A stretch of 62,354 nt of DNA, counting the filler, from Deltaproteobacteria bacterium (GTDB taxonomy: Bacteria > JAEEML01): NCBI GenBank assembly GCA_016283195.1. It is 5 parts of 5 records of this genome, joined end to end, with 100 filler letters (N's around TTAATTAATTAA, not from the genome) between each part and the next. Parts side by side here need not be neighbours in the genome. Positions count along the whole stretch, not along the records: positions 8,750 to 23,694 come from JAEEML010000165.1; 4 more parts are not named here. One strand, given 5' to 3'. The notes under the pieces are model-generated. The model saw only the letters and a program-made list of their open reading frames with translations. It did not search any database and had not been told where the DNA came from. Of this stretch, positions 8,750 to 23,794 are shown in pieces. The position numbers were made by a program, and so were the translations under genes. Numbering within the stretch: position 1 is the stretch's first letter; every line of letters starts with the position of its first letter.

Positions 8750-8998
8750 CATACCGATAACCGTGGCAATGCTGAGTTTAACCGCAAACTCTCCGATCAG
8801 CGCGCCAATGCCATCATGAAGAAACTGATACAAGACGGCGTTGATCCGGCGAGACTCAGTGCTATCGGGTATGTTAAGACAAAACCGATTAAGTCCAACA
8901 ACACTGCCGCCGGCCGTGCTGCCAACCGCCGTGTTGAGTTCAAGATTGTGGACGAAGACGGTTCAAATGCTACCCCTCAAGATTTCCCGCTACAATAA
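8750..8998 (+). CDS. OmpA-family peptidoglycan-binding C-terminal domain (5' truncated)
   Basis: HTDNRGNAEFNRKLSDQRA...GRAANRRVEF, read from the contig edge. Confidence 0.92.
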   Translation, partial: HTDNRGNAEFNRKLSDQRANAIMKKLIQDGVDPARLSAIGYVKTKPIKSNNTAAGRAANRRVEFKIVDEDGSNATPQDFPLQ

Positions 8999-9716
8999 GA
9001 TAATTGCTCTGATATCGGCTCTGGCACTGCATGGCGCAGTGCTGGGGCTCGATATAGAATCTCCGGCGCAGATTGCGCCTAAAGTAACTAAAATTGATTT
9101 CTACAAAATACCCAAACCCATCTCTGTAGAGCCTCTTCCGCCGCAAATAGAGCCGGTAATAAAACCCCAAAAAACGCCGCGCAAAAAAGCATTGCGGCCT
9201 AAAAAAGCTATTATTATGCCAGACCCGCCGGCAGTACTTGAAAAAACTCAGCTAGAACAGCCGGCTCCAACCCCGCCCGAACAACCGCCGGCTTTGGGAC
9301 TAAAACCAAGCGCCAATACCGCCAGCGATAATCAAGTAGTGGTAAATGCCGGCATTTCACTAAGCGGTATTGCCGGTGGTGCCGCTAATACCGAAAAAAA
9401 TGAAACAGCCCATAAAGTACGCACTGTTACCGCCGAAGCACTTAGCAAATTGCCAAAGCCCAAAGGCCCGTGCAATATTCCCTTTCCCGAAGAGGCTGAG
9501 CGGCTTGGTTTGGAAGGCGATGTAATTTTATCGCTCGATATTGATGAAAACGGAAAGGTATCTCATGTAAAATTATTAAAAGGTATCTCACCACTCTTGG
9601 ATCAAGCAGCCATTCGTGGTATTGAGAATTGTCGCTTTGTTCCGGCTCAAAGCGGCGGGGAAAAAGTAGCGGTTTTGGGCCTGACATACAGATATTCCTT
9701 TGTTCTGGAATTTTAA
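8967..9716 (+). CDS. tonB: Energy transducer TonB
   Basis: N-terminal TM with S-x3-H motif (ISALALH), Pro-rich linker, TonB_C domain FPEEAERLGLEGDV...FVPA. Start codon uncertain. Confidence 0.85.
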   Translation: MLPLKISRYNKIIALISALALHGAVLGLDIESPAQIAPKVTKIDFYKIPKPISVEPLPPQIEPVIKPQKTPRKKALRPKKAIIMPDPPAVLEKTQLEQPAPTPPEQPPALGLKPSANTASDNQVVVNAGISLSGIAGGAANTEKNETAHKVRTVTAEALSKLPKPKGPCNIPFPEEAERLGLEGDVILSLDIDENGKVSHVKLLKGISPLLDQAAIRGIENCRFVPAQSGGEKVAVLGLTYRYSFVLEF

Positions 9717-9736
9717 ACCGAAAGACAGGAGTTTAT

Positions 9737-11032
9737 ATGCGCTTTCCCGGTAACAGAATACCACAACACTATTTTCCGGTAGAAGAACGACCGAAACGTT
9801 TGCGCAATATCAGCGACCAGGAGGCACCCGGCGGGAGCACTTATGTAGTTGGCCTTGATCAGCTGATAGTAGATTTGGAAGTTATTTGCGGCCGCGATTT
9901 GCTCGATAGATTTCAAATTCCTCATGGTGAATCGGTGGTGCTCTCGGATGATCGTTTTGACACTTTAAAAGAATATATTACCGCCAATCAGCAAATTCAC
10001 ACGGTAACAGCCGGCGGTGCGGTGGGAAACACCTTAAATAATTACACTTTTTTATCCGGCGAGCGGGCTTACCTTTTGGGAGCGATTGATGATGTGATTC
10101 ACACCGGCAGCTTTGCCTTTCGCTATATCAACGACACTCCACGGGCAGTAGCTCTCGATCACTGCGTGCCGCGCCATGGGCACATTGCCACAGCAATTAC
10201 CTTTGTCACTCCGGACGGCGAGCGCAGTTTTGCCGTAAATATGGGCATTGCCAACAGCTTTCCGCCGGAAGCTATCCCAGCCGGTTTGGTAGAACATTCG
10301 GCCGGTGTACTGCTCACCGCTTTTTGCCTGCGTGACCCCGAAGCCCCCATCTACGAGGCGGCAATCAGCCTGATGAAGCTAGCCAAAGCCGCTCAAGTGC
10401 CGGTTATTTTTAGCCTGGGCACTTCCAGCTTAGTGCGCGAGAAGCAAGCCTACTTTAGAGATATTTTGCAGCGCTATGTCACCTGCGCAGCCATGAATAA
10501 TGAAGAAGCTCTGGCTCTTACCAACCATAGCGATACACTCTTAGCCTGCAACGACATTCTGGACCTGGTGGATATCGTGGTAATTACCGAAGGCGCCAAG
10601 GGGCTCACTATGGCCGGCTTTACCGATGACAAATTTAAGCGCCCCACCGATGCCGCTATTCGCAGCAAGGGTATTGAAAATTATAATGCCTGGGAATACA
10701 GCCGCCTGATGCGTAAGCGCGTTTGCGAAAAGCCTATTAAGATTTTTTCTCATATTCACCCATACCTGGGCGGTCCGCAAAAGGTGGTGAATACCAATGG
10801 CGCCGGTGATGCGGCAATAGCCGCCATTTTGCATGATATTGCCGCTAATAAATACCATAGAAACCGTTTGCCCGATTCGGAAAAACATAAAGGCGATTTT
10901 TTAACTTATTCATCACTGGCGCGCAATGCTCAATATGCCAATCGGGTAGCTTACCAGGTGCTTTTATCGGCCTCACCGCGCCTGGATGGCCAATTGCCCG
11001 ATGATACTCCATTGCAAAAGGAAGAAACATGA
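9737..11032 (+). CDS. gsk: Inosine/guanosine kinase (PfkB family)
   Basis: N-terminus MRFPGNRIPQHYFPV resembles enterobacterial Gsk. NTNGAGDA PfkB motif. Gsk-type C-terminus LTYSSLA..YANRVAYQVL..SPRL. RBS AGGAG. Confidence 0.9.
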   Translation: MRFPGNRIPQHYFPVEERPKRLRNISDQEAPGGSTYVVGLDQLIVDLEVICGRDLLDRFQIPHGESVVLSDDRFDTLKEYITANQQIHTVTAGGAVGNTLNNYTFLSGERAYLLGAIDDVIHTGSFAFRYINDTPRAVALDHCVPRHGHIATAITFVTPDGERSFAVNMGIANSFPPEAIPAGLVEHSAGVLLTAFCLRDPEAPIYEAAISLMKLAKAAQVPVIFSLGTSSLVREKQAYFRDILQRYVTCAAMNNEEALALTNHSDTLLACNDILDLVDIVVITEGAKGLTMAGFTDDKFKRPTDAAIRSKGIENYNAWEYSRLMRKRVCEKPIKIFSHIHPYLGGPQKVVNTNGAGDAAIAAILHDIAANKYHRNRLPDSEKHKGDFLTYSSLARNAQYANRVAYQVLLSASPRLDGQLPDDTPLQKEET

Positions 11033-12168
11033 CACTTGAATTTACCGTAAACGCCCGGGAATCACATTTTAAAGCCCGGGCGGGCACCTTAAAATTGCCG
11101 CATGCTACCGTGGAAACACCATGCTTTATGCCTGTTGGCACAGTAGCTTCGGTTAAATCACTGGCCGGTGACGATTTGGAATCACTGGGCTTTAACCTGA
11201 TGCTCTCCAATACATATCACCTTATGCTACGCCCCGGTGTCAAAACTATTGAAGAATGCGGCGGCTTGCACAACTTTATGGGCTGGCCGCACGCTATTTT
11301 GACCGACAGCGGCGGTTTTCAAGTATTCAGCCTGGCCAAAATTCGCAAACTCACCGAACAAGGTGTCACCTTCCGCAGCCACATCAATGGCGCCCTTAAC
11401 TTTTTGGGCCCGGAAGAGGCGGTATATCTCGAAGAGACTTATGGCGTGGACATCGCCATGATGCTCGATATTTGCCCGCCGGGAGATGCCCCCAAGCGCG
11501 ATGTGGTAAAAGCCATGGATCTCACTACACGCTGGGCCAAGCGCTGTATAGCCGCGCGCAAGCACCCGGACAAAACCAACTTTTTCGGCATTGTGCAAGG
11601 CGGCATTCACAATGACCTAAGAGCTAAACACGCCGAGGAAATATGCGCCCTGCCCTTTGATGGCTTTGCTATCGGCGGGGTGGCTGTGGGCGAAGATCCG
11701 GTGGAAATTGCCAAAACAGTGAACTATACCGCCCCGCTTTTGCCGGAAGACAAGCCGCGCTATCTCATGGGCGTTGGCACACCTAAAGATATTGCTCTGG
11801 CTGTAGCCGCCGGAGTGGATATGTTTGATTGCGTCATGCCCACAAGAAATGCCCGCAACGGCTATCTTTTTGTGCCCGGCGGCCATATCTCTATCAAGCG
11901 CCAGGAATACACCACCGATATGCGCCCACTGGATGAGACTTGCAATTGTCTCTGTTGTCGCCGCTTTAGCCGGGCTTACCTGCGCCACCTTTTTGTAGCC
12001 AAAGAGCTGCTTTACTACCGCCTGGCTTCGCTGCATAATCTGGCTTTTTACAAGCGGCATCTGGCTCAGCTCAGGCAGGCTATTATTGAAGATCGGCTGG
12101 CTGAGGTTATTGCTCCCTACCTAAAAGAACAGGAAATTCTGGAAGAAGAACAAAGGAGTAAAAAATGA
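11029..12168 (+). CDS. tgt: tRNA-guanine transglycosylase (queuosine pathway)
   Basis: TPCFMPVGT, NTYHL, LTDSGGFQVFSL, DMFDCVMPTRNAR and Zn site CNCLCC...HNL. Confidence 0.98.
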   Translation: MTLEFTVNARESHFKARAGTLKLPHATVETPCFMPVGTVASVKSLAGDDLESLGFNLMLSNTYHLMLRPGVKTIEECGGLHNFMGWPHAILTDSGGFQVFSLAKIRKLTEQGVTFRSHINGALNFLGPEEAVYLEETYGVDIAMMLDICPPGDAPKRDVVKAMDLTTRWAKRCIAARKHPDKTNFFGIVQGGIHNDLRAKHAEEICALPFDGFAIGGVAVGEDPVEIAKTVNYTAPLLPEDKPRYLMGVGTPKDIALAVAAGVDMFDCVMPTRNARNGYLFVPGGHISIKRQEYTTDMRPLDETCNCLCCRRFSRAYLRHLFVAKELLYYRLASLHNLAFYKRHLAQLRQAIIEDRLAEVIAPYLKEQEILEEEQRSKK

Positions 12169-13490
12169 ATATGCGCACCAGTGACTACAAAGCTCTCTTA
12201 TCTCTAGCTCTAATCATCGGTTTAATGGCCGGTTGCCGGGATGAGCCAAAATCTCCCAAAGAGCCTTTAAAAGTCACCGGTGATGATACTAAAAAACCTG
12301 GCGATGCCAGGAGCGATATTGATGCCCAAAGCGACACAGATGCGAAAAGCGATAGCGATACTCGAACAGATATCATAAATCCTCCTCCTGGCCCGGGCAA
12401 CGAGTGCACCTTGGATGAGGAGCCACCTGTTGATACAACCGGCGCTATCTGTAAAGCTCCGGCCGCTCCGGTGAAAAATCCCGATGGCTACCCTTGTTGC
12501 GGCCGCAATGACGACTGCATAAGCGGCTTTTGCCAGGATATCTGGGTGTGCGGAAAAAATGGCGAATATGAGGAAAATGTTACTGATTTAGAGCTCCATG
12601 CCCCCTGTTTATACGATGCTCAATGCGCCAGCGGCCGCTGTTGGTACGGCCGCGAAGTATATCGTTGTGCCACTACCTGCCAGCCCGGTGATAAAGGTGA
12701 CGGCCAGTATTATTGCGCTTTAAATCCCTATAGTGACAGTACTACAGACTATATCTGCCAACCGGACCCAAAAGTTGGCAAAAAGTGCTGCCAGCAGAGC
12801 GACTGCCCGGCTGAAAGCCTCTGTTATAGCCAGTATTGCGTAACTTCCTGCGAATATACCAACTGCCCAAGCGGCAGCAAGTGTTACAAAGATGTGCGTG
12901 TAGCCAATAAATCTATGGATATTTGCATAGCCGATGAGCTGATTGGCTCTTTGCCGGCCGGTGCGCAGTGTTTTAATGACCTATTTTGCCAGAGTGGCCA
13001 TTGTTTTAACCAAAAATGCCAAGACTTAAGCCAAGTTAATTGCTCCGGCCCAGCAGATTACCCCGATTTAGACCAGCCCGACGGCTATCCGTGCAATTTT
13101 GATCAGGATTGCCACAGCGGCAAATGCAGCATAGAGAATAATGATTTTGTCTGCACTTCCGGCGATAGTTATCAAGGGGCAACCAATCTGCCCAATAATG
13201 TTCCCTGCCTAATGAATGAAGAGTGCGCCAGCGGGTACTGCTGGTATAACGGCGGCAAAATGGCGGCCGATGGCATTTTCGATGCCTCTCTTTGTGCTCA
13301 GCCCTGTATGCCGGGTGTCGCCAAAAGTGATGGCAATTTTGCGTGCCAACAAGATTATTTTGGCAAATATCTCTGTTTGCCGGTGCGCACCAATAACGGC
13401 GGCAAAGGTACACCTTGTCTTTTCACCGAATTTGACTGCCAGGAAGGGCTCGTTTGCGACCGGGTAGAGAAAGTTTGCAAAGGGATGTAA
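12165..13490 (+). CDS. Cys-rich lipoprotein with internal duplication
   Basis: Lipobox LMAGC. Two related halves (PDGYPC..DC.SG.C / PCL...CASG.CWY). ATGA overlap with tgt. Confidence 0.85.
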   Translation: MNMRTSDYKALLSLALIIGLMAGCRDEPKSPKEPLKVTGDDTKKPGDARSDIDAQSDTDAKSDSDTRTDIINPPPGPGNECTLDEEPPVDTTGAICKAPAAPVKNPDGYPCCGRNDDCISGFCQDIWVCGKNGEYEENVTDLELHAPCLYDAQCASGRCWYGREVYRCATTCQPGDKGDGQYYCALNPYSDSTTDYICQPDPKVGKKCCQQSDCPAESLCYSQYCVTSCEYTNCPSGSKCYKDVRVANKSMDICIADELIGSLPAGAQCFNDLFCQSGHCFNQKCQDLSQVNCSGPADYPDLDQPDGYPCNFDQDCHSGKCSIENNDFVCTSGDSYQGATNLPNNVPCLMNEECASGYCWYNGGKMAADGIFDASLCAQPCMPGVAKSDGNFACQQDYFGKYLCLPVRTNNGGKGTPCLFTEFDCQEGLVCDRVEKVCKGM

Positions 13491-13492
13491 CC

Positions 13493-14593
13493 ATGAAAAA
13501 AGGCCTGTTTCCGCAAATAATTTTAGCTGCTTTGATTATTTTTAGCACTTCGCCGCTGCTTGCCGATGATGCCCCGCTGACCAAACAGGAAACAACTAAA
13601 ATTTGGCAAAAATTCAATAATGACCGAAAGGTACGCAAAATTTTGCCCTGCCGCCAGGATGATGACCTTGACGCTCTGGCCGCTAAAGAGCTCACTGCCA
13701 TGCTGGAAAAGCCGGAGCTGGCGCAAACCATGAAAACGCGCCTCAAAAATGAGCCCAAGCTTAAAGAGGGCTTTACCACCCTGCTCTTTGCCGTCAAAAA
13801 CGAAAAAGAGCTCATGGCCAAGCTGGTAAAACAAAAAAATTATGAGCGTTTTTTGGCCGCCGATATAGCTGCTCTGGGCATTGCCGGCATTAAGTTGGAT
13901 GCCGAGCCGCCATTTTGGCAAATTTTAATTATTGGCGGCAAAGAGGTGCCACTTGACCCCTGCAATGGCCAGCCAGGCCTTAGCGAAGCGCAGGTAGCCG
14001 GGACCAAGCGCAGCATAGAATCACGCATAACCGCTTGTTATAATAAGGCTATTGAAACAGGAGACCCTAATATATCCGGCAAAATAACCTATAGCCTGGA
14101 AGTAGCCCCCACCGGCGCCATCGCCGTTAAAAACCTCATCTTTGCCAGCGAAGATTTAAAAGCCGAAGTGCTTCCCTGCATCGAAGGCCTTATGAAAGGC
14201 CTGAAATTTCCCAAGCCATGTGGCAATAAACCAGTAAAAATACTAAGTTTTGGCTGGGATTTTACCCCGCCTCACGGCACCTCCAAACGCCTTGGCCGCC
14301 TAAGCAATGCGCTTATCACCAGTGCCATTCAGCGCAAGCGCCCACAAATGCAGCGCTGCTATGAAAAAGAATTGAAACGCAATAAAAAGCTGCAAGGTAA
14401 AATTGTTTTGCATTTTGCTCTGGAACCAAGCGGAAAAATTAAAGAACTCTCCTTAAAAGAAGATAGTATTAAAAGCCCTGCCGTCACCACTTGCGTTTTG
14501 CAAGAAGCGGGAAAAGTGCTCTTCCAGGCTCCAAAATATAACGGCGAAGTGGAATTTGACTTTCCGCTCGAATTTACCTCCGATGCCAAATAA
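13493..14593 (+). CDS. Secreted protein with two AgmX/PglI-type (TonB_C-like) domains
   Basis: Signal peptide. Two copies of xCY.....P.(L/I).GK.......G.......CV/I.......F..P. Confidence 0.8.
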   Translation: MKKGLFPQIILAALIIFSTSPLLADDAPLTKQETTKIWQKFNNDRKVRKILPCRQDDDLDALAAKELTAMLEKPELAQTMKTRLKNEPKLKEGFTTLLFAVKNEKELMAKLVKQKNYERFLAADIAALGIAGIKLDAEPPFWQILIIGGKEVPLDPCNGQPGLSEAQVAGTKRSIESRITACYNKAIETGDPNISGKITYSLEVAPTGAIAVKNLIFASEDLKAEVLPCIEGLMKGLKFPKPCGNKPVKILSFGWDFTPPHGTSKRLGRLSNALITSAIQRKRPQMQRCYEKELKRNKKLQGKIVLHFALEPSGKIKELSLKEDSIKSPAVTTCVLQEAGKVLFQAPKYNGEVEFDFPLEFTSDAK

Positions 14594-14602
14594 GGTCTTG
14601 TT

Positions 14603-15001
14603 ATGATTAAAACTAAAGGATTCTTAGTCCTTTTGGTCTTTTCTTGGCTGGCATTTTCGGCATCATGCCAGCGCCCAAAGGCTTTTTTTGCCCCCACCGG
14701 TCCGATTATGCATCCTGTTGATAAAAAGAGCCCGGTTGCTGTTTATTGTACAATGCCCTACCCGCCTTTTGTCGAACTCGGCATTTTAACTATGCGGATA
14801 AAAGACGGTAAATACCCGGATATCGGTGTTTATGTGCGCCGCTTGGGCGCCAATGGCATAGTTTATGATATTATACCGCCGGAAGATGATGTGCATAAAA
14901 TGCTTTTAATCGACCGCAACTGGCCTCATTGGTATAATGATGTTAACTCCGGAAATGCCACCGTTTTACAAGATGATATCCTGCATTGTGCAGCCAAGTA
15001 A
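14603..15001 (+). CDS. Hypothetical lipoprotein
   Basis: Hydrophobic N-terminus ending in SASC. Starts 9 bp after the previous stop. Confidence 0.65.
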   Translation: MIKTKGFLVLLVFSWLAFSASCQRPKAFFAPTGPIMHPVDKKSPVAVYCTMPYPPFVELGILTMRIKDGKYPDIGVYVRRLGANGIVYDIIPPEDDVHKMLLIDRNWPHWYNDVNSGNATVLQDDILHCAAK

Positions 15002-15401
15002 GCAGTTTACGGCCGGATTTAAGCGTGGAAAGCGGCCCTAAAAAAAGCACTTCACCATATTTTAAAAGCTCATAACGTTTTTTTTCCAAAGCAATGCGTT
15101 TGCTGTGGCGGGTGGCAAGAACAACCGCCCCCAAAACGGCGGCTATAGGCACCGGGCGGTCAAAAGCAATACAAGCATCTCCTTTAAAAATGAGGTGTTG
15201 GCCGCGCACCCGGTGGAGGCGGTGGCAAATTGTCTCGCCGTTTTCGTTTTTATATACATAGAGCTCACCGGGGCGAAAATGGCCCACCGGCCGCACAATA
15301 AGTAAATCGCCGCTTTTAAAGAGCGGCCACATAGAGGAGCCTTTAACAATAAAGGATATTGTTTTTATATTGCCGGAAGAGCGCTTTTTTCCACTTTCCA
15401 T
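14943..15401 (-). CDS. S24/S26 family peptidase (signal-peptidase-like, Ser-His type)
   Basis: Motifs GSSMWPLFKSGD, ICHRL and FKGDA. Confidence 0.8.
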   Translation of the reverse strand: MESGKKRSSGNIKTISFIVKGSSMWPLFKSGDLLIVRPVGHFRPGELYVYKNENGETICHRLHRVRGQHLIFKGDACIAFDRPVPIAAVLGAVVLATRHSKRIALEKKRYELLKYGEVLFLGPLSTLKSGRKLLTWLHNAGYHLVKRWHFRS

Positions 15402-15576
15402 TACAATATGCCAACCCGACAGCTGTTAAAATGCCAGAACCGTTTGCGCGGCCCTGGGGCCATTTTAGCATAATTTCATAAAAAAGCTTGGCTAATAGTT
15501 TTATCTTGAATGGAGGCTAAATTATCTTGATAAATCAGAGAGATATTATACTGACGGGGTTATGTTGACTTGCAGA

Positions 15577-16848
15577 TTAATATACTATTATAGCACATCT
15601 ATGACCATTTGCGTCACAGCCATCGTCACATTGGTCAGCCGCCTCGGCATCCCAGAAAGATTCGCCAACAAGAACAGGAACAGGGGGCATATCGCTGGGG
15701 GTAAGCAGCTGAGTAGCTTTGCCAAAGAGATTTACGCAAGCTTTTTCAACTTTTTCTTTGGCTACACCGCCTTCGGTAGTGCAAGACCAAACATGGTCTT
15801 TACAGCCATCGTCAACCAGTGTGCCATTATCATCTTTCACACAAACCGGGACATTTATGAAAGTAAAATTGTGATAGAAAGCGGCAGTTTCATTATTTCT
15901 TGCCAGCATTTGATCAATATCGGCATCATCAAAAGGAGCAGGTATTAAACGGCATTCGCGGTCGCTGGGGCAGGAATGTTCGGCAACTTTGCAAACAGTT
16001 TCACCATTATTATCTTCAACACAACCACAGTAAAGAGCCTTGGTTAGTTTACGAGTATCATTATCGTATCCGGAGCAGGAGTTGTTAAAGAGATACGGGT
16101 CACAAGGATCACCGACTTTTTTCCCTACACCAGAATCGGCATCGCTTACCACACACTTGGAGCCATCGCAAGACGAACAAGCTTTGATAGTGGTAACAAG
16201 CACATTATCGCCTGTCACACTCTTCATGCATTTTTGCTCAAGAGAGGAGACAAAGGAATCGTCATCAGTGTCGGCATCACATTGGGTATTATTATATGTA
16301 CTATTACACAGTTCATCTGTAAGCCCTGTGGGGTCCAAAACGCAGCGGCTACGCGGCTTGCCATCGCTAAGTTTAACGGTTTTACACACAGTTTCTTGGG
16401 CCTCAATAATTGGGCAGAATAATTTTGCTACTTTGTTATCTTTGCAAACAATGATGTTCTCGGTGCCATCGCAACGCGGAATAAAGGTAACGGGGTTGCA
16501 GGCGTCATTTTCTTTTACCGGCGTCACAGCAAATGGGTCATCAGGGACACAGGCATGGTGCTCAAGATCGCAGAACCAATCCTCACCGGTTTTCAGAGCC
16601 CCTTTTGTACAATCGGCAGGTCCTTCACAATAGGGATCAGGCTGCTGATTGTTATTGTTGTTCTGATTGTTTTGGTTATTGTTGTTCTGATTGTTTTGGT
16701 TATTGTTGTTCTGATTGTTGTTGTTCTGGTCTTTTTGGTTATTTTGATTGTTTTGGTTGTTCCCTTCGTTCTCGTTACCTTTGCAAGCACCAAGGGACAG
16801 TGCCAGCATCATGCTCATTAGAAACACATTCTTACTAAGTTTTTTCAT
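15577..16848 (-). CDS. Cys-rich lipoprotein with Asn/Gln low-complexity linker
   Basis: RBS AGGAG before ATG 16848. Lipobox LGAC. NNNNQNNQ run followed by Cys-rich domains. Confidence 0.85.
   Translation of the reverse strand: MKKLSKNVFLMSMMLALSLGACKGNENEGNNQNNQNNQKDQNNNNQNNNNQNNQNNNNQNNQNNNNNQQPDPYCEGPADCTKGALKTGEDWFCDLEHHACVPDDPFAVTPVKENDACNPVTFIPRCDGTENIIVCKDNKVAKLFCPIIEAQETVCKTVKLSDGKPRSRCVLDPTGLTDELCNSTYNNTQCDADTDDDSFVSSLEQKCMKSVTGDNVLVTTIKACSSCDGSKCVVSDADSGVGKKVGDPCDPYLFNNSCSGYDNDTRKLTKALYCGCVEDNNGETVCKVAEHSCPSDRECRLIPAPFDDADIDQMLARNNETAAFYHNFTFINVPVCVKDDNGTLVDDGCKDHVWSCTTEGGVAKEKVEKACVNLFGKATQLLTPSDMPPVPVLVGESFWDAEAADQCDDGCDANGHRCAIIVY
16645..16760 (-). repeat. Asn/Gln-coding simple repeat (24-bp period core)
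   Basis: Repeated gttattgttgttctgattgttttg units. Confidence 0.9.
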
Positions 16849-16926
16849 TTTTAAACTCCTTCGTCGCAAAATTTTTGCTATATGCGCGACAAGAGAAATG
16901 ATTAGCACAGCAGGAGAGAAAAAAGC

Positions 16927-17124
16927 AAACATTTTCGTCAGAAAAAGAAAGAAAAAAATAGTCTATAATATCAATGACTTATAAATTTTATATTTTATAA
17001 AATCAGCTCAAAAATCAGCGACATTTTTGTCATAATAAAAATGCCTTTTTGGCCACTTTAAACAGGTAATATTTGCTTTTGGACTCATTTTTCAGCACAA
17101 ATAAATGGTATGACATTTTTGTCA
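16927..17124. promoter_or_regulatory. Three phased TGACA-N4-TGTCA-like sites plus an IHF consensus site
   Basis: AAACATTTTCGTCA 16927-16940, CGACATTTTTGTCA 17019-17032, TGACATTTTTGTCA 17111-17124. TATCAATGACTTA at 16969-16981 matches WATCAANNNNTTR. Confidence 0.55.
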
Positions 17125-17156
17125 GGCAGCCGGCGGCTATTTAGCAATTTATGGCT

Positions 17157-18158
17157 TCAGCGCCAGATTTTCCCAGATTTTAAAAGTATGATCAAAAAGA
17201 GCGGCGAACCGATAAAGGCGGTGACAACACCTATCGGCAGCTCAACCGGAGTTAGACTCCTGGCTAAGGTATCCACCAGCAGCATAAAGAGTGCACCTAT
17301 TAGAGCGGCGGTAGGAATAAGGCGGCGGTGGGAGGCACCAACCAGAGCGCGGGCGGCGTGGGGTATCAAGAGGCCTACCCAGCCGATGGTGCCTACAAGA
17401 GCCACGACAGAGCCAGTCATCATGGTGGCCAAAATGACAAAAAGCAGCTTTAAAAGGCGCGTTTCGGCACCAAGAGCGCGGGCTTCCTCATCACCGCAGG
17501 ACAAAAGGTCCAGCCACCAGGAGATCATCACCAGCAGAAAAAAGCAAATAAACACAATAGCAGCGGTGATATAGCACTCTTTTTCACCAGCGGCGGAGAG
17601 GCTGCCAAGAAGCCAAAAATTGATGGTTTGCAGCTTGTTAAATGGGTCGGCCAGCACCTTTATGAGCGAGATGCCGGCGCTCGCCAGTGAGCCGATAACA
17701 ATACCGGCCAGCACCAATACAAAGACCGAAGATCGCGAATGGCCGATGAGCTTACCAACTAAAAGCGCCAGGCCAACGGTCAAAAGGCCGCCCAGAAAAG
17801 CGGCTATTTCTATTTGCCAGACGGTGGCGTCAAAATATATAGCGAGTGCCGCCCCAAAACCGGCACCGGCAGAAACTCCCAAAATATCGGAAGAAACCAA
17901 GGGGTTACGAAAAATAGCCTGGTAGGTGCCGCCGGCACTGGCGAGCGCAATACCGGTGATAATAGCGGCTAAAATACGCGGCAAGCGCAGGTGCAGAAGC
18001 ACCCAGCCCGGTGTGCCGGGCTCCATAGAAACACTAGCGGCAAGAGCGGAAAAATCAAAGCTAAAGCGCCCCATGAAAAGGGAAAAAACAGCGGTACTCA
18101 GCAAAATAAGGGCTAAAACAGCTACAAAGGCTTTAAAATGTTCGGTGATTTTTAGCAC
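17157..18158 (-). CDS. FecCD/BtuC-family iron-siderophore or cobalamin ABC permease
   Basis: LRLPRILAA, FRNPLVSSDILGVSAGA, GDEEARALG, IGWVGLLIPH, ELPIGVVTAFIGSP. Confidence 0.95.
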   Translation of the reverse strand: MLKITEHFKAFVAVLALILLSTAVFSLFMGRFSFDFSALAASVSMEPGTPGWVLLHLRLPRILAAIITGIALASAGGTYQAIFRNPLVSSDILGVSAGAGFGAALAIYFDATVWQIEIAAFLGGLLTVGLALLVGKLIGHSRSSVFVLVLAGIVIGSLASAGISLIKVLADPFNKLQTINFWLLGSLSAAGEKECYITAAIVFICFFLLVMISWWLDLLSCGDEEARALGAETRLLKLLFVILATMMTGSVVALVGTIGWVGLLIPHAARALVGASHRRLIPTAALIGALFMLLVDTLARSLTPVELPIGVVTAFIGSPLFLIILLKSGKIWR

Positions 18159-18383
18159 TTTGGCCTTTCTGGCGCAAACTTACCTTCAGCGGTTCCGCCA
18201 ATTTGCGGAGCCTATTTAGCACACTTAAGGCCGGGCGGCCAATAGGGAAGAAAGGATAACGATTTTTCTTAAGTAACACCAACCTACTTTAATAAAGCCA
18301 TTAACAAAATATTTTCTATTGCCGCACCGTTGTGGCTGTGTTAGCCTTTTACCTGTTTTTGTTTGGCTTTTAAGGAGCTTCAC

Positions 18384-21300
18384 ATGAAAAAAACGCAACT
18401 GGCTTTCACGTTTTTAATGGCCACAATTACTCTCTTCTACGCTGCCTGTGCCGGAAACGGCACTTTAGAGCCCGGTACCGCCATCTGCCCGGCCGGTACC
18501 ACCGCTCTGGAAAACGGTAAGTGCCAAATCAATGATTTTATCTGCCCGGCCGGCGCTGAGCTCAATTCAAGCGGCAAATGCGTGGTAAGCAAAGCTGCTT
18601 GCCCCGCTGGCACCAAAGAGGACGGCTCAGGTAATTGCCTGGCGCCCAAAATCTGCCCGCCCGGCACCGTGGAAAGCTATGTTATGGACGGCGCATCGGA
18701 AATTTTGAGCCACTGCGTCATCTTAGCTCGGGATTGCCCGCCAGGTAGCAAGCTCAACGATAACGGGCAGTGCATTATCAGCGAGAAACTGTGCCCGGCC
18801 GGCAGCAATTTTGATGGCACCTCTGGGTGTGTCATCGCTGAAACTTCCTGCCCCACTGGCTCTTTGGCTAATGAGGATGACGAGTGTATTGTTACCAGCC
18901 GTATTTGCTATGACGGCTCATCTTTAAATGCCCTGGGCCAATGTGTGATTAATACCAGTGAATGTAGCGAAGGCGTAAAAAACGGTGAAGGGAAATGCAT
19001 CATTACCAATGTTTCTTGCCCTGATGGCTCAGTTTCCGATGGCAACGGCTATTGTATAATTAGCGCTACAGAATGCCCCGAAGCCTCAGTAAAAGATGGC
19101 TCCAGCGAAGGCCGCTGCATTATCAGCCAGGCTGTCTGCCCGCCAGGCACCAATATTGACAGCAACTCCGATTGTGTCATCGCTGAAACTTCCTGCCCCG
19201 ATGGTTCAAGCGAAAATGAGCTCGGTGAATGTCTTATTTTGAGCCGCGTTTGCTCTGATGGCTCATCTTTAAATAGCCAAGGCCAGTGCATTATTAATGA
19301 ACGCCTTTGCCCGGAAGGCTCCAGCAAAAATGAGAACGGAGAGTGTGTTATCGCCGCTACTATCTGCCCGGAAGGCTCCAGTAAAAACAATAGCGGCGAG
19401 TGTGTTATCGCCGCCACTATCTGTCCAGAAGGCTCCAGCAAAAACAATAGCGGCGAGTGTGTTATTGCCGCCACTATCTGTCCAGAAGGCTCCAGCAAAA
19501 ACAATAACGGCGAGTGTGTTATTGCCGCCACTATCTGCCCGGAAGGCAGCACATTTATCGGCTCGGATTGTGTTGTTAATAGTACCTCGTGCCCGAGTGG
19601 CTCCACATTCAACAACCTGGGTCAATGTATCATCAACGAAACAGATTGCCCGGAAGGTTCTCTTAAAACAGCCGATAACAAGTGTTTAATCACGACCAAA
19701 ATTTGCCCGGAACACAGCACAATGAGCGCAGATGGCCTCTGCGTAATCAAAGCCACCATTTGCCCCACTGGCTCCGAAAAGAATGGCAACGGCGAATGTG
19801 TTATCAATTCAACAATTTGCCCGGAAGGCAGCGCTAAAGACGCTTCTGGCGTCTGTGTCATCTCGGCCTCAGAGTGTCCAGTCGGCACCAGCAAAAATGG
19901 CGAAGGTCGCTGCGTTATCTTAGCCACCATTTGCCCCAGCGGCTCAACAGGCAATAGCTCCGGCCAATGTATCATTGATGCCACCATCTGTCCGGAAGGC
20001 ACCAGCAAAAACGAGGCCGGGAAATGCGTCATCGCTGCCACCGAGTGCCCCAGCGGCACCAGCATGATTGGCCAGAATTGTGTGGTAACTAGCACGATTT
20101 GCCCGGTAAATTCCGACAAAAACGAGCTCGGCCAATGTGTGGTTGATCGCACTGTTTGCCCCGCCGGTTCCAGCGAAATAAATGGCCAGTGTGTAATAAA
20201 TGCCACTGTTTGTCCCGCTGGCAGCACTTTGATAGCCGGAGACTGTGTGCTGGATGATGTAGTGTGCCCACAGGGCAAAGTGCTGAAATATGGCGTTTGT
20301 GTGGAAGAAAAACTAGCTAACGGCACGCAGTGCAATTCAGCCAGTGAGTGCGAAAGCGGCTACTGTGTGGATGGCGTCTGCTGCAACAACAGCTGCCCCA
20401 CGCCGGATAGCTGCGTAAACGGCACACACATCAGCTACAGCTGCGCCACCAATCCAGGTGTGTGCGAGATGAGCGCCATCAGCTGCGGCAATTATATTTG
20501 CGAGCCAGGTGCAAATACTTGCAAAGATGTTTGTGCCGATGATCTTAATTGCCAAAATGGCGCTTTTTGCATCAGCGGCGAATGTGTTAACACCTGCCTA
20601 AAAGGCTCTGGTTTTTATGGTCGCGATTGCCATGCCTGCCCAGACTGCGGCCATGGCACTTGTGACGATGGGCGCAGTGGCAGCGGCAAGTGTATCTGCG
20701 AAGAAGGCTTTAGCGGCCAAAATTGTAATAACCAATTTCCAATGTGCACAAAAAAATACAATGTTTACGACCAGGTAAGTGCCAGCGATTGTTATTTTGT
20801 TGATACCCGCGCCACGCCAAGAAGCTACCCGGTAGTAGCCATAGGTAATCAAATCTGGCTAGCCGAAAATATGCGCTATGATGGTGTTGATTATCATCCT
20901 GCACCTTATGGTGGTGATTCTGGGTTCGCTAGCTATCTTTATAGTTGGGCTGATGCACAAAATGTTTGCCCAGATGGTTGGCATATGCCGTCAAGGCAAG
21001 AATATGGTATTCTCATAAGTTACGTAAAATCTAATAGTAATGATGGAAACACTGCCTTTTATTTAACTGCCCAATGTTCCGATTGGGATTATTGGTATGA
21101 TACATACCCATATTATACTAATTATTTTGGCTTTTCAGCTTATCCGACTGGTGGAGGATTACCCGCTCAAAATTGCCTTGATAACAACCATTATGACTAC
21201 AGTCAATGTTGGCGTAAAGATGATGGCAGTGTAATATGGAGTTCTACTAATGCTGGTGAGGATTCTTATGGAAAGTATGCTTATACACTGTCTATATACC

Positions 21301-22685
21301 GACCTGACGATACTCCGAATACTTGGGCCTCATATGTATTAGATAAATATGATGAATATGCTGTGTTTTATTGGCCAGTTCGCTGTCTTATGGATTATAG
21401 TTGCGGTGACCATGGCGAGTTTGATAACCAGCGTGGCTGCGTTTGCGCAACTGGCTGGAGTGGTGAAAGATGTGAAAAATGTGCCAGCGGCTTTAGTGGA
21501 CCAAATTGTGAATGGCAACATGGTTATGTACAAGATGAACGCGACGGTAATAAATATCGGACTGTTATGATTGGTGAACAAAAATGGTTAGCCGAAAATA
21601 TGCGTTACGCCGAAGTTACTCATTATTCAGTTGGTGGCGATAGTGCTAATGATGCGACATATGGCTATCTTTATACGGCACTCAATGCCCAAAATGTTTG
21701 CCCAGTCGGTTGGCATTTACCAACAAAAAGCGAATTTAATACATTAAATACCTATGTAACTGCTCATAAAACAAGTTCATCAAACTTTTTAGCTCTTATT
21801 GCCAACAGTGCTGATTGGTCTGCATATGCCTTACAGGGTGGGGATGATTTTGCTTTTGGAGCTCTTCCTAGTAGCAATAATAGCCAAGATTTTGGTACCA
21901 ATGCATATTTTTGGAGTAATACACCCAGAAGTGAAGCCAATCAATCATATCAATATTACTTCTATTTAAGTAATGGTAGTAGTACAAGTTATACCTCAGC
22001 AAATGGAAATTTTGCTGTACGTTGTGTTGAAAACTATAGCTGCCCAACTCATGCCAGATGGGATAATCGATTCGGTTGTATTTGCACAACAGGCTGGACT
22101 GGTGAAAGATGTGAGACTTGTGCTGTTGGTTATAGCGGAGAGGACTGTACTTGGTCTGGGGGTTATGTAGAAGATAGTCGAGATGGTGAAAGTTATAGAA
22201 CCATTACTATTGGTACTCAAACCTGGCTGGCTGAAAATATGCGTTATACAGGTGTTACTCATTATTCAGCTGGTGGGGAAAGTTCTAATGATGCTATTTA
22301 CGGTTATCTATATTCTTGGGATGATGCCCAAAATGTTTGCCCATCAGGTTGGCATTTACCCACACAAAATGAGTTTAATACACTATATACATATGCAAAT
22401 ACCCATAAAAGCAGCTCTTCTACATTTTTAGCTCTCATTGCCAAAAATGGTGACTGGTTGGAATATATGTATGAAGGTGGGGATGATTTTGGCTTTTCTG
22501 CGCTTCCAGCCGGCAATTACTACTCAGACAACTACAACTATTTAGGTATAAGCACCTTCTTCTGGTCTAGTACAGAGTACGATAGTTCCAACGCATACTA
22601 TTTGTACTACGTTGCTAATAACAATGCCAATGTGTCAAATACCAATAAGACACGCGGCTACTCCGTCCGCTGCGTAAAGAATTAA
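18384..22685 (+). CDS. Giant Cys-rich lipoprotein: ~32 CPxG-x8-C repeats, EGF-like modules and three FISUMP (Fib_succ_major) domains
   Basis: RBS AAGGAG. Lipobox YAAC. Three IGxQxWLAENMRY...CPxGWHxP...VRC domains. Confidence 0.9.
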   Translation: MKKTQLAFTFLMATITLFYAACAGNGTLEPGTAICPAGTTALENGKCQINDFICPAGAELNSSGKCVVSKAACPAGTKEDGSGNCLAPKICPPGTVESYVMDGASEILSHCVILARDCPPGSKLNDNGQCIISEKLCPAGSNFDGTSGCVIAETSCPTGSLANEDDECIVTSRICYDGSSLNALGQCVINTSECSEGVKNGEGKCIITNVSCPDGSVSDGNGYCIISATECPEASVKDGSSEGRCIISQAVCPPGTNIDSNSDCVIAETSCPDGSSENELGECLILSRVCSDGSSLNSQGQCIINERLCPEGSSKNENGECVIAATICPEGSSKNNSGECVIAATICPEGSSKNNSGECVIAATICPEGSSKNNNGECVIAATICPEGSTFIGSDCVVNSTSCPSGSTFNNLGQCIINETDCPEGSLKTADNKCLITTKICPEHSTMSADGLCVIKATICPTGSEKNGNGECVINSTICPEGSAKDASGVCVISASECPVGTSKNGEGRCVILATICPSGSTGNSSGQCIIDATICPEGTSKNEAGKCVIAATECPSGTSMIGQNCVVTSTICPVNSDKNELGQCVVDRTVCPAGSSEINGQCVINATVCPAGSTLIAGDCVLDDVVCPQGKVLKYGVCVEEKLANGTQCNSASECESGYCVDGVCCNNSCPTPDSCVNGTHISYSCATNPGVCEMSAISCGNYICEPGANTCKDVCADDLNCQNGAFCISGECVNTCLKGSGFYGRDCHACPDCGHGTCDDGRSGSGKCICEEGFSGQNCNNQFPMCTKKYNVYDQVSASDCYFVDTRATPRSYPVVAIGNQIWLAENMRYDGVDYHPAPYGGDSGFASYLYSWADAQNVCPDGWHMPSRQEYGILISYVKSNSNDGNTAFYLTAQCSDWDYWYDTYPYYTNYFGFSAYPTGGGLPAQNCLDNNHYDYSQCWRKDDGSVIWSSTNAGEDSYGKYAYTLSIYRPDDTPNTWASYVLDKYDEYAVFYWPVRCLMDYSCGDHGEFDNQRGCVCATGWSGERCEKCASGFSGPNCEWQHGYVQDERDGNKYRTVMIGEQKWLAENMRYAEVTHYSVGGDSANDATYGYLYTALNAQNVCPVGWHLPTKSEFNTLNTYVTAHKTSSSNFLALIANSADWSAYALQGGDDFAFGALPSSNNSQDFGTNAYFWSNTPRSEANQSYQYYFYLSNGSSTSYTSANGNFAVRCVENYSCPTHARWDNRFGCICTTGWTGERCETCAVGYSGEDCTWSGGYVEDSRDGESYRTITIGTQTWLAENMRYTGVTHYSAGGESSNDAIYGYLYSWDDAQNVCPSGWHLPTQNEFNTLYTYANTHKSSSSTFLALIAKNGDWLEYMYEGGDDFGFSALPAGNYYSDNYNYLGISTFFWSSTEYDSSNAYYLYYVANNNANVSNTNKTRGYSVRCVKN
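19308..19535 (+). repeat. Four near-identical 57-bp coding repeats (CPEGSSKNxxGECVIAATI)
   Basis: Directly visible. This is the youngest part of the degenerate array spanning about 18486-20300. Confidence 0.95.
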
Positions 22686-22694
22686 AGCTGAGCA

Positions 22695-22711
22695 GCCCGT
22701 CGCAGGCGGGT
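22695..22711 (+). other. GC-rich hairpin with GCA triloop just after the FISUMP gene stop
   Basis: GCCCGTC-GCA-GGCGGGT, with two G-T pairs. It has no U-tract, so it is not a typical terminator. Confidence 0.55.
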
Positions 22712-22801
22712 AGCCAGTCCTGCCCCACTTTCTTCTTGCCCCCATTCGCTAAGTCTGCTAAAAGCCATCCCACAACTTAAAAAAGCCACTAGGAGATTAT
22801 C

Positions 22802-23694
22802 ATGGCTAATGAAGTACCGTATTCCGTAGAAGAAGAAATAATCCACTTAACCCCGGAACAGCGCGCCACCATCACCGTCACCAATGACTATGTCTTTCGC
22901 TGCCTCTTCGGCGACACCAAAAATGAAAAGCTTTTACTCTCGCTAATAAACGCTGTCCTACGCGACAGCAAGCAGGAAGAAGTTAGCTCGGTAACCATCA
23001 CAAGCCCTTTTAATTATAAACAAACTTTTAATGATAAAGAATCCATAACCGATGTAAAAGCGGTGGCCAAAAGCGGCGAAATTTTTGATATTGAGATGCA
23101 GGTTTTAAAAGAGAGCGATTATATGAAGCGCATTCTTTACTACGCTGCCCACAATATCAGCTCGCAGCTGCCGAAGGGAGAACACTATTCCGCCATTCAT
23201 CCGGTTATTTGCATAAATGTGCTGGCTTTTGAGCTTTTTAAAGAGGACCGGCGGCCCCACCACTTTGCCGAGATTATGGAGGTGGAGAGCCAAAAAGTTT
23301 TAACCGATGATCTGGGTTTTCATTTTCTGGAGCTCACAAAGCTTAAAGATTGTGCTAATATTGACGGTGAGCTAAGTGAGTGGCTCAATTTCTTCCGGCA
23401 TGGGCACGAGGAGTATTATATGGTTAGCGGAGCTTATCAAGCCGTTGTTGATGCCAATAGCTGGTTTGAGAATTTCAAAGCCAATGACTATATGAGCAGC
23501 AAAGCCTTTCAAAGAGCCAAACACCTGCGCGATGAGGAAGCTATTCGCAAAGCCGGCTGGGAAGATGGTAGAGAAGAAGGGCTGATAGCGGGCAGGGAAG
23601 AAGGCAAGACTGAAGGCAAGCGCGAAGATGCCAGAAAAATGCTTGATTTTAACATGGAGATTGCCACTATTTCTGCCGTCACCGGTCTTTCAGC
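22802..23694 (+). CDS. Rpn family recombination-promoting nuclease / PD-(D/E)XK protein (3' end in gap)
   Basis: NDYVFRCLFG, KESITDVKA...DIEMQ, RILYY, HFLEL and C-terminal GREEG repeats. RBS AGGAG. Confidence 0.92.
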
Positions 23695-23794
23695 NNNNNN
23701 NNNNNNNNNNNNNNNNNNNNNNNNNNNNNNNNNNNNNNTTAATTAATTAANNNNNNNNNNNNNNNNNNNNNNNNNNNNNNNNNNNNNNNNNNNN
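23695..23794. other. Artificial contig spacer
   Basis: N-run, TTAATTAATTAA, N-run. Confidence 0.99.

What the first reader, a model, noticed from the sequence alone, without database searches (positions are those of the whole stretch)
22512..22711. C-terminus of the giant lipoprotein looks like a remote DGR variable region with downstream GNA-triloop hairpin
Seen: the last 57 codons (GNYYSDNYNY...FWSSTEYDSSNAYYLYYVANNNANVSNTNKTRGYSVRCVKN) are rich in AAY codons and NNY codons derivable from AAY. Tyr codons switch from 10 TAT:1 TAC in the preceding ~120 codons to 2 TAT:8 TAC. A GC-rich CTCCGTCCGCTGCG tract ends the gene, and GCCCGTC-GCA-GGCGGGT follows 9 bp after the stop. Knowledge: DGR targets are C-type-lectin-fold domains including Fib_succ_major, with a C-terminal VR mutated at template adenines and a downstream hairpin. 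I found no RT, Avd or TR in this window. Inference: a trans-acting DGR diversifies the tip of a ~1400-aa stalked surface lipoprotein, an antibody-like receptor in a myxobacteria-like cell.
Basis: partly seen in the sequence, partly recalled or inferred. Interest (0 to 1): 0.78.

Follow-up and report, generated by a model that had tools for sequence, protein, structure and literature searches.

The report
Probable retroelement-written tip of a lectin lipoprotein
The last ~190 bases of a giant surface-protein gene look like a patch rewritten by a known bacterial hypermutation system (a diversity-generating retroelement), but the template and enzyme that would prove it are not on this short metagenome contig.

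Summary
The last 57 codons of the 1,433-aa gene (18384-22685) switch codon usage sharply: C-ending codons 0.49 against 0.12 upstream (p=1.9e-7), and Tyr TAC:TAT 8:2 against 1:10. Similarity to the paralogous second lectin domain drops at the same point, from 0.73 to 0.47 nucleotide identity. So the segment 22497-22685 has a separate history.

That span, from the ALPAG motif to the stop, is the template/variable repeat span in real FISUMP-type DGRs I found in other genomes (L134, L140, G001-G003). Three of six other strongly shifted FISUMP ends have an adenine-biased template in their own genome, and a fourth matches another genome's template. Zero of three unshifted controls do.

No template repeat or reverse transcriptase is in the window, which is five unrelated metagenome contigs joined by N spacers. 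None turned up in the collections with the patterns I could scan. No reads or alleles cover the site. The hairpin is weak and misses the published criteria.

Verdict: probably (about 0.6) a DGR-written variable repeat of the known DUF1566/Fib_succ_major class, active or orphaned. The main rival is gene conversion from a paralogue.

This scan has noted similar orphan variable repeats in FISUMP genes on other DNA. It is a new member of a known kind, of modest interest.

The parts
18384..22685 (+). Gene for a 1,433-aa probable surface lipoprotein. It has a signal peptide ending ...LFYAAC, a Cys-rich repeat stalk, EGF-like linkers and three Fib_succ_major (FISUMP) lectin-fold domains.
   Evidence: ORF 18363-22685 and its translation. 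The database copy P0002 starts at the Met, 1,433 aa. Pfam PF09603 E 8.5e-57 in 3 stretches, and PF07603 Lcl_C. The lipobox was read from the sequence and not tested with a tool.
20880..22496 (+). Low-GC3 block holding lectin domains 1 and 2 and the first two thirds of domain 3.
   Evidence: GC3 is 0.13-0.33 in 30-codon windows here, against 0.37-0.80 in the stalk windows, 0.55 over the whole stalk (18363-20630) and 0.41-0.56 in other contig genes. Domains 2 and 3 are 0.73 identical in nucleotides over 116 codons.
22164..22682 (+). Third and last FISUMP domain.
   Evidence: Pfam best stretch at residues 1281-1439. Domain limits.
22497..22685 (+). Candidate DGR variable repeat, from the ALPAG motif through the stop.
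   Evidence: C3 0.49 vs 0.12, p=1.9e-7. Identity to domain 2 falls to aa 0.34 / nt 0.47. N content is top 3, and N+Y top 2, of 749 homologous domain ends. Same span as the template/variable repeats of L134, L140, G001 and G002.
22661..22674 (+). A-free, GC-rich 14-mer encoding (Y)SVRC(V). Possible start of an IMH.
   Evidence: Read; 11 of 14 bases are G/C. It is not independent of the codon shift: domains 1 and 2 write VRC with T-ending codons.
22696..22710 (+). Inverted repeat CCCGTC-GCA-GGCGGG, 10 nt after the stop. It extends to 22695-22711 with a G-T pair.
   Evidence: One of 4 six-bp hairpins with GNA/GRNA loops on the + strand of the 62 kb window. Fold z -0.75. A proven remote variable repeat (L103) has TCCACC-GAA-GGTGGA 3 nt after its stop.
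22802..23694 (+). PD-(D/E)XK family transposase-like gene, cut off by the end of the contig. It marks the limit of linked sequence downstream.
   Evidence: Pfam PF12784 E 3.5e-49. The contig ends at 23694.

Best explanation
The last ~190 nt (22497-22685) of the gene are a variable repeat written by a diversity-generating retroelement of the DUF1566/Fib_succ_major ('category d', CLec2) kind.

Mechanism, inferred from the known system:
- A reverse transcriptase copies a template repeat elsewhere in the genome.
- It misreads the template's adenines.
- The cDNA replaces the stretch from the conserved ALPAG motif to the 3' end of the gene.
- This re-codes the ligand-binding face of the outermost of three lectin domains on a long Cys-rich stalk.

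Shown: the segment has a separate history, the right place and span, and a codon and Asn/Tyr signature like such repeats. Real FISUMP-type DGRs with remote targets exist.

Inferred: this segment's own template and RT exist or once existed. Whether the system is active now or the repeat is orphaned is open; I put activity now at roughly 0.3 of the total.
For: 1. A sharp break at about 22495-22511.
- C3 is 0.49 vs 0.12, p=1.9e-7.
- Tyr TAC:TAT is 8:2, against 1:10 just upstream and 32:62 summed over ten other rows (eight other contig genes, the stalk and the downstream transposase gene).
- Domain 3 against domain 2 drops from aa 0.67 / nt 0.73 over 116 codons to aa 0.34 / nt 0.47 over 53 codons. 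Identical codons at identical residues fall from 55 of 78 to 6 of 18.

2. My A-bias repeat finder recovered the template and both variable repeats of Bacteroides phage Bacuni F1 as a positive control.
- In 79 newly fetched genome loci with FISUMP ends it found 2 cis pairs, L134 and L140.
- Both run from ALPGG to the stop, the same span as here.

3. Six other strongly shifted terminal ends (the five strongest, L112, L103, L137, L141 and L139, and L101, seventh of the 109 ends) were each used as a query against their own genome, and three have an adenine-biased template there. The sixth-ranked, L102, was only compared locally (see Tried and rejected).
- L103/G002: 31 of 40 mismatches at template A. 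The template sits beside an RVT_1 gene with IGNLTSQ...YVDD.
- L137/G003: 28 of 36, with an RT beside it.
- L112/G001: 27 of 40, with 36 matches to the query at E<=0.001 in the genome, the query's own locus included.
- L101 has no template in its own MAG, but matches the non-A positions of the G002 template at 0.96.
- L141 and L139 have none.
- Of 3 unshifted controls, 0 have one.

4. Asn content is top 3, and Asn+Tyr top 2, of 749 homologous domain ends. The peptide aligns to the G002 template with the scaffold residues kept.

5. A 6-bp stem with a G-N-A triloop lies 10 nt after the stop. The proven remote repeat L103 has a 6-bp stem with a GAA loop 3 nt after its stop.

6. Published surveys place DGR variable repeats at the C-termini of DUF1566/DUF823/Fib_succ_major proteins (51 of 372 DGRs) and record remote targets (PMC5758913, passages and section 10 read).
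Against: - No template repeat in the window, by blastn with word size 7 or by an adenine-tolerant ungapped scan. The best non-self match was 122 of 184 positions, in an A-rich stretch.
- No YxDD RT motif in six frames, apart from a GlnRS-like hit.
- The 22-mer spanning the GC tract, with W at the Tyr codon, found 0 places in genome contigs, only this contig in metagenome contigs and 0 in viral contigs. A second 24-mer found 0 in genome contigs.
- The protein is a singleton. No alleles were found, and no template-like ORF and no hit listing an RT family among the best 120 of 925 shorter proteins.
- No reads cover 22541-22782.
- The tail's composition equals that of the gene's own stalk, so a native donor could explain it.
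- 7 of 11 Asn codons are AAT, not AAC. By my own hand alignment to the G002 template, three codons at variable positions end in A.
- Identity to the Fibrobacter template at non-A positions is only 0.65, rank 44 of 173.
- At protein level the tail is as conserved as the rest of the domain: mean 0.42 vs 0.44 over 232 homologues.
- Similar tails are invariant among alleles of an unrelated 374-aa protein family.
- 2 of the 6 strongly shifted ends tested have no template and match none.
- The hairpin misses the published criteria and is thermodynamically unremarkable.
Confidence: 0.6

Rival explanations
1. Gene conversion or recombination. The tail was copied from another FISUMP paralogue of the same organism that has the genome's usual codon usage, with crossovers in the two most conserved motifs (FSALPAG and SVRCV). 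No retroelement is involved.
For: The tail's GC3 and C3 (0.58 / 0.47) match the stalk (0.55 / 0.43) and lie near the contig's genes (GC3 0.41-0.56); the block upstream is the odd one. The break lies at the family's most conserved motif (invariant columns L112 P113 A114 G115), where recombination is also easiest. Two strongly shifted ends in other genomes (L141, L139) have paralogous copies but no template. No template or RT was found here.
Against: Tyr 8 TAC: 2 TAT does not fit the contig's usage, 32:62 summed over ten other rows. Asn and Asn+Tyr content is at the extreme of 749 domain ends. The only place found with the tail's 22-mer is the contig itself. Four of the six other strongly shifted ends tested are linked to a DGR template.
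Confidence: 0.27
2. Nothing special: an ordinary conserved FISUMP C-terminus whose codon usage and Asn/Tyr content vary by chance or follow from its amino-acid make-up.
For: The peptide is a typical family tail, up to 62% identical to other proteins' tails. It is as conserved as the rest of the domain. Tyr positions are shared with homologues. Many terminal ends in other genomes show a mild rise in C3.
Against: The equivalent tails of domains 1 and 2 of the same gene, of like make-up, have C3 of 0.09 and 0.15. The shift has p=1.9e-7. Nucleotide identity to the paralogous domain collapses at the same point, including at identical residues.
Confidence: 0.03
3. Assembly chimera: the metagenome assembler joined the 3' end of a different organism's FISUMP gene onto this gene at the conserved ALPAG motif.
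For: The contig comes from a metagenome and ends 1 kb further on inside a repeated transposase-type gene. The break lies at a conserved motif. I saw no second assembly of this stretch: the window's own protein has one database member on one contig.
Against: The sequence downstream (GC 0.45, GC3 0.49 in the transposase gene) is like the upstream contig genes. The reading frame and the domain continue without a flaw. The shared motif is only about 15-20 nt long, which is short for a mis-join.
Confidence: 0.1

Closest known systems
DGR 'category d' targets with CLec2-type variable repeats (DUF1566 / DUF823 / Fib_succ_major), exemplified by Legionella LdtA (Wu et al. 2018, PMC5758913; passages and section 10 read)
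   Same: A surface lipoprotein with a C-terminal lectin-fold domain carrying Fib_succ_major and Lcl_C (DUF1566) matches. The candidate repeat is at the very C-terminus, with a GC-rich start of a possible IMH and an inverted repeat downstream.
   Different: No template repeat, RT or accessory gene is in view. The protein is far larger (1,433 aa), with a long Cys-rich stalk and three lectin domains, of which only the last bears the signature.
FISUMP-type DGR cassettes found here: G002:C47 (target-ORF-template-RT), G003:C18, L134 and L140, with remote variable repeats L103 and L137 on other contigs
   Same: The repeat spans the same stretch (ALP[A/G]G to the stop, about 190 nt) on the same scaffold (FWSSTE ... 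NA[Y/W] ... G[FY]SVRC). Remote targets show a C-rich codon shift against the rest of the gene. L103 has a 6-bp, G-N-A triloop hairpin just after its stop.
   Different: Those repeats match a template at 0.86-0.96 of its non-adenine positions; ours matches that template at only 0.65, so it belongs to another, unseen template. Asn codons here are mostly AAT, whereas those templates use mostly AAC.
Treponema denticola DGR with seven non-adjacent targets (as described in PMC5758913 and PMC6602519; passages read)
   Same: One cassette acts on target genes far away in the chromosome, which is what a remote variable repeat here would need.
   Different: A different organism. I did not compare its sequences here.
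Bacteroides phage Bacuni F1 DGR (MT635598; PMC8143477, passages read; L091)
   Same: DUF1566/Fib_succ_major-type variable repeats at gene ends. It served as the positive control for my repeat finder.
   Different: The phage repeats are short (108-111 nt, 35 aa) and start after the FWSSTE motif. Their hairpins are strong, with 7-8 bp stems and GAAA/GCAA loops. The template and RT are present.

Membership tests
DGR variable repeat | A template repeat in the same genome that differs from it (almost) only at template adenines | tested here: inconclusive
   None in the window. Pattern scans found none in genome contigs, metagenome contigs or viral contigs. No whole genome is held, the contig is 14.9 kb, and the scans needed an exact 22- or 24-mer.
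DGR variable repeat | A DGR-class reverse transcriptase (with or without Avd) in the genome | tested here: inconclusive
   No YxDD motif in six frames of the window except a GlnRS-like hit. Pfam on the contig's 10 ORFs gave no RVT_1 and no Avd-like family. The rest of the genome is not available.
DGR variable repeat | Lies at the C-terminal end of a C-type-lectin-fold (or Ig) domain of the target protein | tested here: met
   PF09603 at residues 1281-1439 of 1440, and PF07603 Lcl_C at 1323-1439.
DGR variable repeat | Same extent and scaffold as repeats of the same class | tested here: met
   Templates of G001, G002, L134 and L140 all begin at [AS]LP[AG]G and end a few codons after SVRC/SARC, 183-195 nt extracted. 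Here the break is at 22495-22511 and the stop at 22685.
DGR variable repeat | AAY-derived codon signature and a compositional break from the rest of the gene | tested here: met
   11 AAY and 27 NNC codons of 57; C3 0.49 vs 0.12. But 7 of 11 Asn codons are AAT, and the composition equals the stalk's.
DGR variable repeat | IMH: a GC-rich segment at the 3' end of the repeat, with a near-copy at the template | tested here: inconclusive
   An A-free 14-mer with 11 of 14 G/C at 22661-22674. It is the SVRC motif in C-ending codons. Without a template, IMH cannot be set against IMH*.
DGR variable repeat | Downstream inverted repeat: 7-10 bp GC-rich stem, 4-nt GRNA loop, 4-34 bp from the repeat (PMC3240598, PMC6602519) | tested here: not met
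   The stem has 6 pairs, one of them G-T (7 pairs with a second G-T), and the loop is 3 nt (GCA). It lies 10 nt from the stop. Fold z -0.75. Only 127 of 372 DGRs have a good repeat (PMC5758913), so this feature is not obligatory. L103 has a like 6-bp triloop hairpin.
DGR variable repeat | Localised hypervariability among reads, strains or alleles | not testable with these tools
   Three runs hold only scraps and none covers 22541-22782. The protein is a singleton cluster.
Fib_succ_major (FISUMP, PF09603) domain protein | Match to the Pfam model above its gathering score | tested here: met
   192.9 bits against a cut-off of 33.9, in three stretches.
Bacterial lipoprotein | Signal peptide with a lipobox Cys | not tested
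   The sequence reads MKKTQLAFTFLMATITLFYAAC|AGNG. Position -3 is Tyr, not the usual Leu. No predictor was run.

The most novel reading that the evidence does not exclude
An active DGR encoded elsewhere in a deep-branching, uncultured bacterium keeps rewriting only the outermost of three lectin domains, held on a stalk of about three dozen disulfide beads. No relative in the genome collection has a TGT gene above 54% identity. The result would be a long-reach, antibody-like variable receptor, with two constant lectin domains beneath the variable one.
Probability: 0.25. Interest if true: 0.45.

Novelty: new member of a known kind. Interest (0 to 1): 0.3.

Why it matters
If the template exists, this adds a DGR target with an unusual build to the known set: a very long Cys-rich stalk and three lectin domains, of which only the tip is variable. 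It comes from a lineage with no close sequenced relative.

The session also gives a practical recipe. In FISUMP genes, a C-rich codon shift that starts at the ALPxG motif flags remote DGR targets. Four of six such ends tested in other genomes were tied to a template. That can help find targets that cassette-centred DGR finders miss.

The system itself and its class of targets are already known.

Tried and rejected
- Reads: the look-up of sequencing runs gave 3 gut runs with 0.05-0.07 of the words. Laid at 80% likeness, they gave only short scraps of other FISUMP genes and of the transposase gene, with nothing over 22541-22782. No test of hypervariability was possible.
- Whole genome: none is held.
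- Template search in the window: blastn with word size 7 and an adenine-tolerant scan found only self.
- Pattern scans: searches found only the contig itself.
- Phage tblastn with domain 3: 2 records, the same 735-kb uncultured phage filed twice, 32% identity, no annotation. Not followed.
- Cis template search around relatives: 0 of 9 genome loci, and 0 real pairs in 9 IMG/VR loci, where the one AT-rich hit in L095 is not a DGR pair.
- Protein search for alleles or a template ORF among shorter proteins: the best hit was 62% identical and none of the best 120 lists an RT family.
- A cluster of 374-aa proteins with similar tails looked like possible DGR alleles, but their tails are nearly invariant.
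- Likeness to the Fibrobacter template: rank 44 of 173, so it does not show that ours comes from that template family.
- L102 against the G003 template: 24 of 43 mismatches at A, 68% identity. Ambiguous, so not counted.
- My first 'G003 template' extraction picked the cis variable repeat instead, so I make no use of that row.
- The N-rich ORF 15577-16932 (-) is a lipoprotein with an N/Q linker, not a template.
- Earlier-findings look-ups by place and by sequence returned nothing for this contig.
- Supplements of PMC5758913 (variable-repeat alignments, DGR tables) are closed. They may hold FISUMP-type templates closer to this repeat.
Full report
**What the window is.** The 62,354-base window holds four pairs of 44-N blocks. 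The metagenome contig JAEEGL016596121.1 (14,945 bp, L001) equals window 8750-23694 exactly. So the window is a chain of five separate metagenome contigs, and only 8750-23694 is physically linked to the finding. No whole genome is held.

On this contig lie genes for TonB-like proteins, a PfkB kinase, queuine tRNA-ribosyltransferase (TGT), an S24 peptidase and a FecCD permease. Then comes the large gene, and then a PD-(D/E)XK transposase-like gene cut by the contig end. The TGT gene is at most 53-54% identical to any of the 80 best loci in the genome collection, with Polyangia/Myxococcales MAGs first. The organism therefore has no close sequenced relative, and 'myxobacteria-like' is not established.

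**The gene.** ORF 18363-22685 matches a database protein that starts at the Met (1,433 aa, a singleton). It has a signal peptide ending LFYAAC, a long stalk of Cys-rich repeats, EGF-like linkers and three Fib_succ_major (FISUMP) domains. The last domain also matches Lcl_C/DUF1566.

- The last 57 codons have GC3 0.58, 27 NNC codons and 11 AAY codons. The eleven preceding blocks of 57 codons have GC3 0.18-0.47 (0.18-0.33 from 20802 on), 5-23 NNC (5-12 from 20802 on) and 2-6 AAY.
- Tyr is 8 TAC: 2 TAT, against 1:10 in the previous 120 codons.
- Measured as C-ending codons, the last 55 codons have 0.49 against 0.12 (p=1.9e-7). The equivalent tails of domains 1 and 2 of the same gene, of like amino-acid make-up, have 0.09 and 0.15.
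- Domains 2 and 3 are close paralogues up to this point, aa 0.67 and nt 0.73 over 116 codons. They then fall to aa 0.34 and nt 0.47 over 53 codons.
- Identical codons at identical residues drop from 55 of 78 to 6 of 18. A sliding window places the break at about 22494-22511.

The tail therefore has a history of its own. This is not a chance fluctuation.

- Set against the contig's other genes (GC3 0.41-0.56) and the gene's stalk (GC3 0.55, C3 0.43), the odd part is the low-GC3 block 20880-22496. The tail looks 'native'.
- The GC-rich 14-mer is just SVRC in C-ending codons. Domains 1 and 2 write the same residues with T-ending codons, and a similar 18-mer ends another FISUMP gene on another contig.
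- The inverted repeat has a 6-pair stem, one pair G-T, and a GCA loop. It folds no better than shuffled sequence (z -0.75). Thirty-one six-pair hairpins of this kind, four of them with GNA/GRNA loops, occur on one strand of the window.
- The published target-site rule is a 7-10 bp GC-rich stem, a 4-nt GRNA loop, and 4-34 bp from the variable repeat (PMC3240598 and PMC6602519, passages). This one does not meet it. Only 127 of 372 DGRs have a good inverted repeat (PMC5758913, passage).
- At the protein level the tail is a typical family tail. It is up to 62% identical to other proteins' tails and as conserved as the rest of the domain: mean 0.42 vs 0.44 over 232 homologues, with the tail the more conserved in 92 of 232.
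- Like tails are nearly invariant among alleles of one 374-aa protein family.

**Direct search for the retroelement failed.**
- No template repeat in the window and no RT motif.
- No hit but the contig itself for a 22-mer across the GC tract in the metagenome collection. None in the genome or viral collections, and none for a second 24-mer.
- No allele or template-like ORF among proteins.
- No reads over the site.

**Comparative test.** I wrote a finder for repeat pairs whose mismatches fall at A (or T) in one copy. It recovers the template and both variable repeats of Bacteroides phage Bacuni F1.
- Among 79 newly fetched genome loci with FISUMP ends it found two cis pairs: L134 (30 of 31 mismatches at A) and L140 (25 of 26). 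In 9 earlier genome loci and 9 viral loci it found none.
- Both templates run from the ALPGG motif to just past the stop, about 190-200 nt. That is the same span as the anomalous segment here (22497-22685).
- I ranked 109 terminal FISUMP ends from these loci by the same C3-shift test. Ours would be third.

I then searched the whole genomes of six other strongly shifted ends (the five strongest and the seventh; the sixth, L102, was only compared locally), each with its own tail as query:

| End / genome | Result |
|---|---|
| L103 / G002 | Template on another contig, 31 of 40 mismatches at template A. A cis variable repeat lies 1.3 kb away, and an RVT_1 gene with IGNLTSQ...YVDD lies beside it |
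| L137 / G003 | Template with 28 of 36 mismatches at A, RT beside it |
| L112 / G001 | Template-like copy with 27 of 40 at A; 36 matches in the genome, the query's own locus included |
| L101 / G009 | No template in its own MAG, but matches the non-A positions of the G002 template at 0.96 |
| L141 / G004 | None |
| L139 / G005 | None |

Three unshifted controls (L110, L143, L083) have no adenine-biased match.

So in this family a C-rich shift that begins at ALPxG is a fair marker of a DGR-written tail, often a remote one. The numbers are small, though, and two shifted ends remain unexplained. The cis pair L134 shows little shift (p=0.11), so the marker is not a necessary feature either.

**How close ours is to those systems.**
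- The peptide aligns to the G002 template with the scaffold kept: ALPAG, Y, S, LG, T, FWSSTE, S, NAY, L, NNANV, K, G, SVRC. Differences fall mostly where the template has Asn. Any family member would share that scaffold, so this alone is weak.
- At the nucleotide level ours matches the non-A positions of that template at 0.65 (73 of 113), against 0.45 and 0.44 for domains 2 and 1. That is only rank 44 of 173 ends. It was not written from that template family.
- Asn content (0.18) is in the top 3, and Asn+Tyr (0.36) in the top 2, of 749 domain ends in 239 homologues. This fits a lightly mutated copy of an Asn-rich template.
- 7 of 11 Asn codons are AAT, whereas the templates seen here use mostly AAC.
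- The proven remote repeat L103 has a 6-bp stem with a GAA triloop 3 nt after its stop. That resembles ours, 10 nt after the stop. Other proven repeats have different or no clear hairpins.

**Weighing.**
- A separate origin for 22497-22685 is secure.
- For a DGR origin: the span, the position in the outermost lectin domain of a surface protein, the Tyr codon bias that fits no other part of the contig, the Asn/Tyr extreme, the behaviour of like-shifted ends elsewhere, and the weak triloop hairpin.
- Against: the missing template and RT (a limited test), the native-like composition, the AAT codons and the lack of any variation data.
- I put a DGR-written variable repeat at about 0.6, with perhaps half of that still active.
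- The rivals are gene conversion from a paralogue with crossovers in the two conserved motifs (about 0.27), an assembly mis-join at the conserved motif (about 0.1), and an ordinary tail (about 0.03).

**Novelty.** DGR targets of the DUF1566/DUF823/Fib_succ_major class, remote targets and lipoprotein targets are all in print (PMC5758913, PMC4159848, PMC8143477; passages read). Earlier notes of this scan report orphan variable repeats in FISUMP genes on other DNA (e1-2134818, e1-5120703, e1-2145790). I did not check those loci. I found my own examples independently.

What is particular here is the build of the protein and the lineage. It is a new member of a known kind.

Noticed in passing
window 8650-8749, 23695-23794, 41367-41466, 54672-54771: Four spacers of the form N44 + 12 bases + N44. 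The window is a chain of five separate metagenome contigs, so neighbourhood across these points means nothing.
   Followed up: yes
L180-L187 (G001, a Chitinispirillia MAG); template-like copy at L183:7-178: One small genome (2.9 Mb) holds 36 matches at E<=0.001 to a 196-nt FISUMP tail (the query's own locus included), at least a dozen of them near full length, on many contigs and some in tandem. It also holds one Asn-rich template-like copy. This looks like a DGR with an unusually large set of remote targets.
   Followed up: partly
L101, L103, L105 (end 5661), L137 against the template at G002:C47:87392-87582: Tails of FISUMP genes from four different Fibrobacter genomes match the non-adenine positions of one genome's template at 0.86-0.96. 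One of these genomes (G009) showed no template of its own. A conserved template family is shared across Fibrobacter species, or orphaned targets exist.
   Followed up: partly
L193:7708-8475 (-): In the G002 cassette, a 255-aa ORF with no Pfam match lies between the target gene and the template, where an accessory gene (Avd) would be expected.
   Followed up: no
window 20880-22496: The block with lectin domains 1-3 (minus the tail) has GC3 of about 0.13-0.33, far below the stalk of the same gene and every other gene on the contig. This suggests the lectin block itself is of foreign or separate origin.
   Followed up: partly
window 15577-16932 (-): A 451-aa probable lipoprotein with a long Asn/Gln linker (NNQNN repeats) and many Cys. 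No Pfam match.
   Followed up: no
window 45434-46105 (-) and 50485-52665 (-): Two more FISUMP-type proteins on another contig of the window, with no codon shift at their ends (C3 0.27 vs 0.31 and 0.35 vs 0.38).
   Followed up: partly
window 19308-19547: Near-identical tandem stalk units (CPEGSSKNxxGECVIAATI, 87-88% nucleotide identity between neighbours), which points to recent expansion of the Cys-rich stalk.
   Followed up: no
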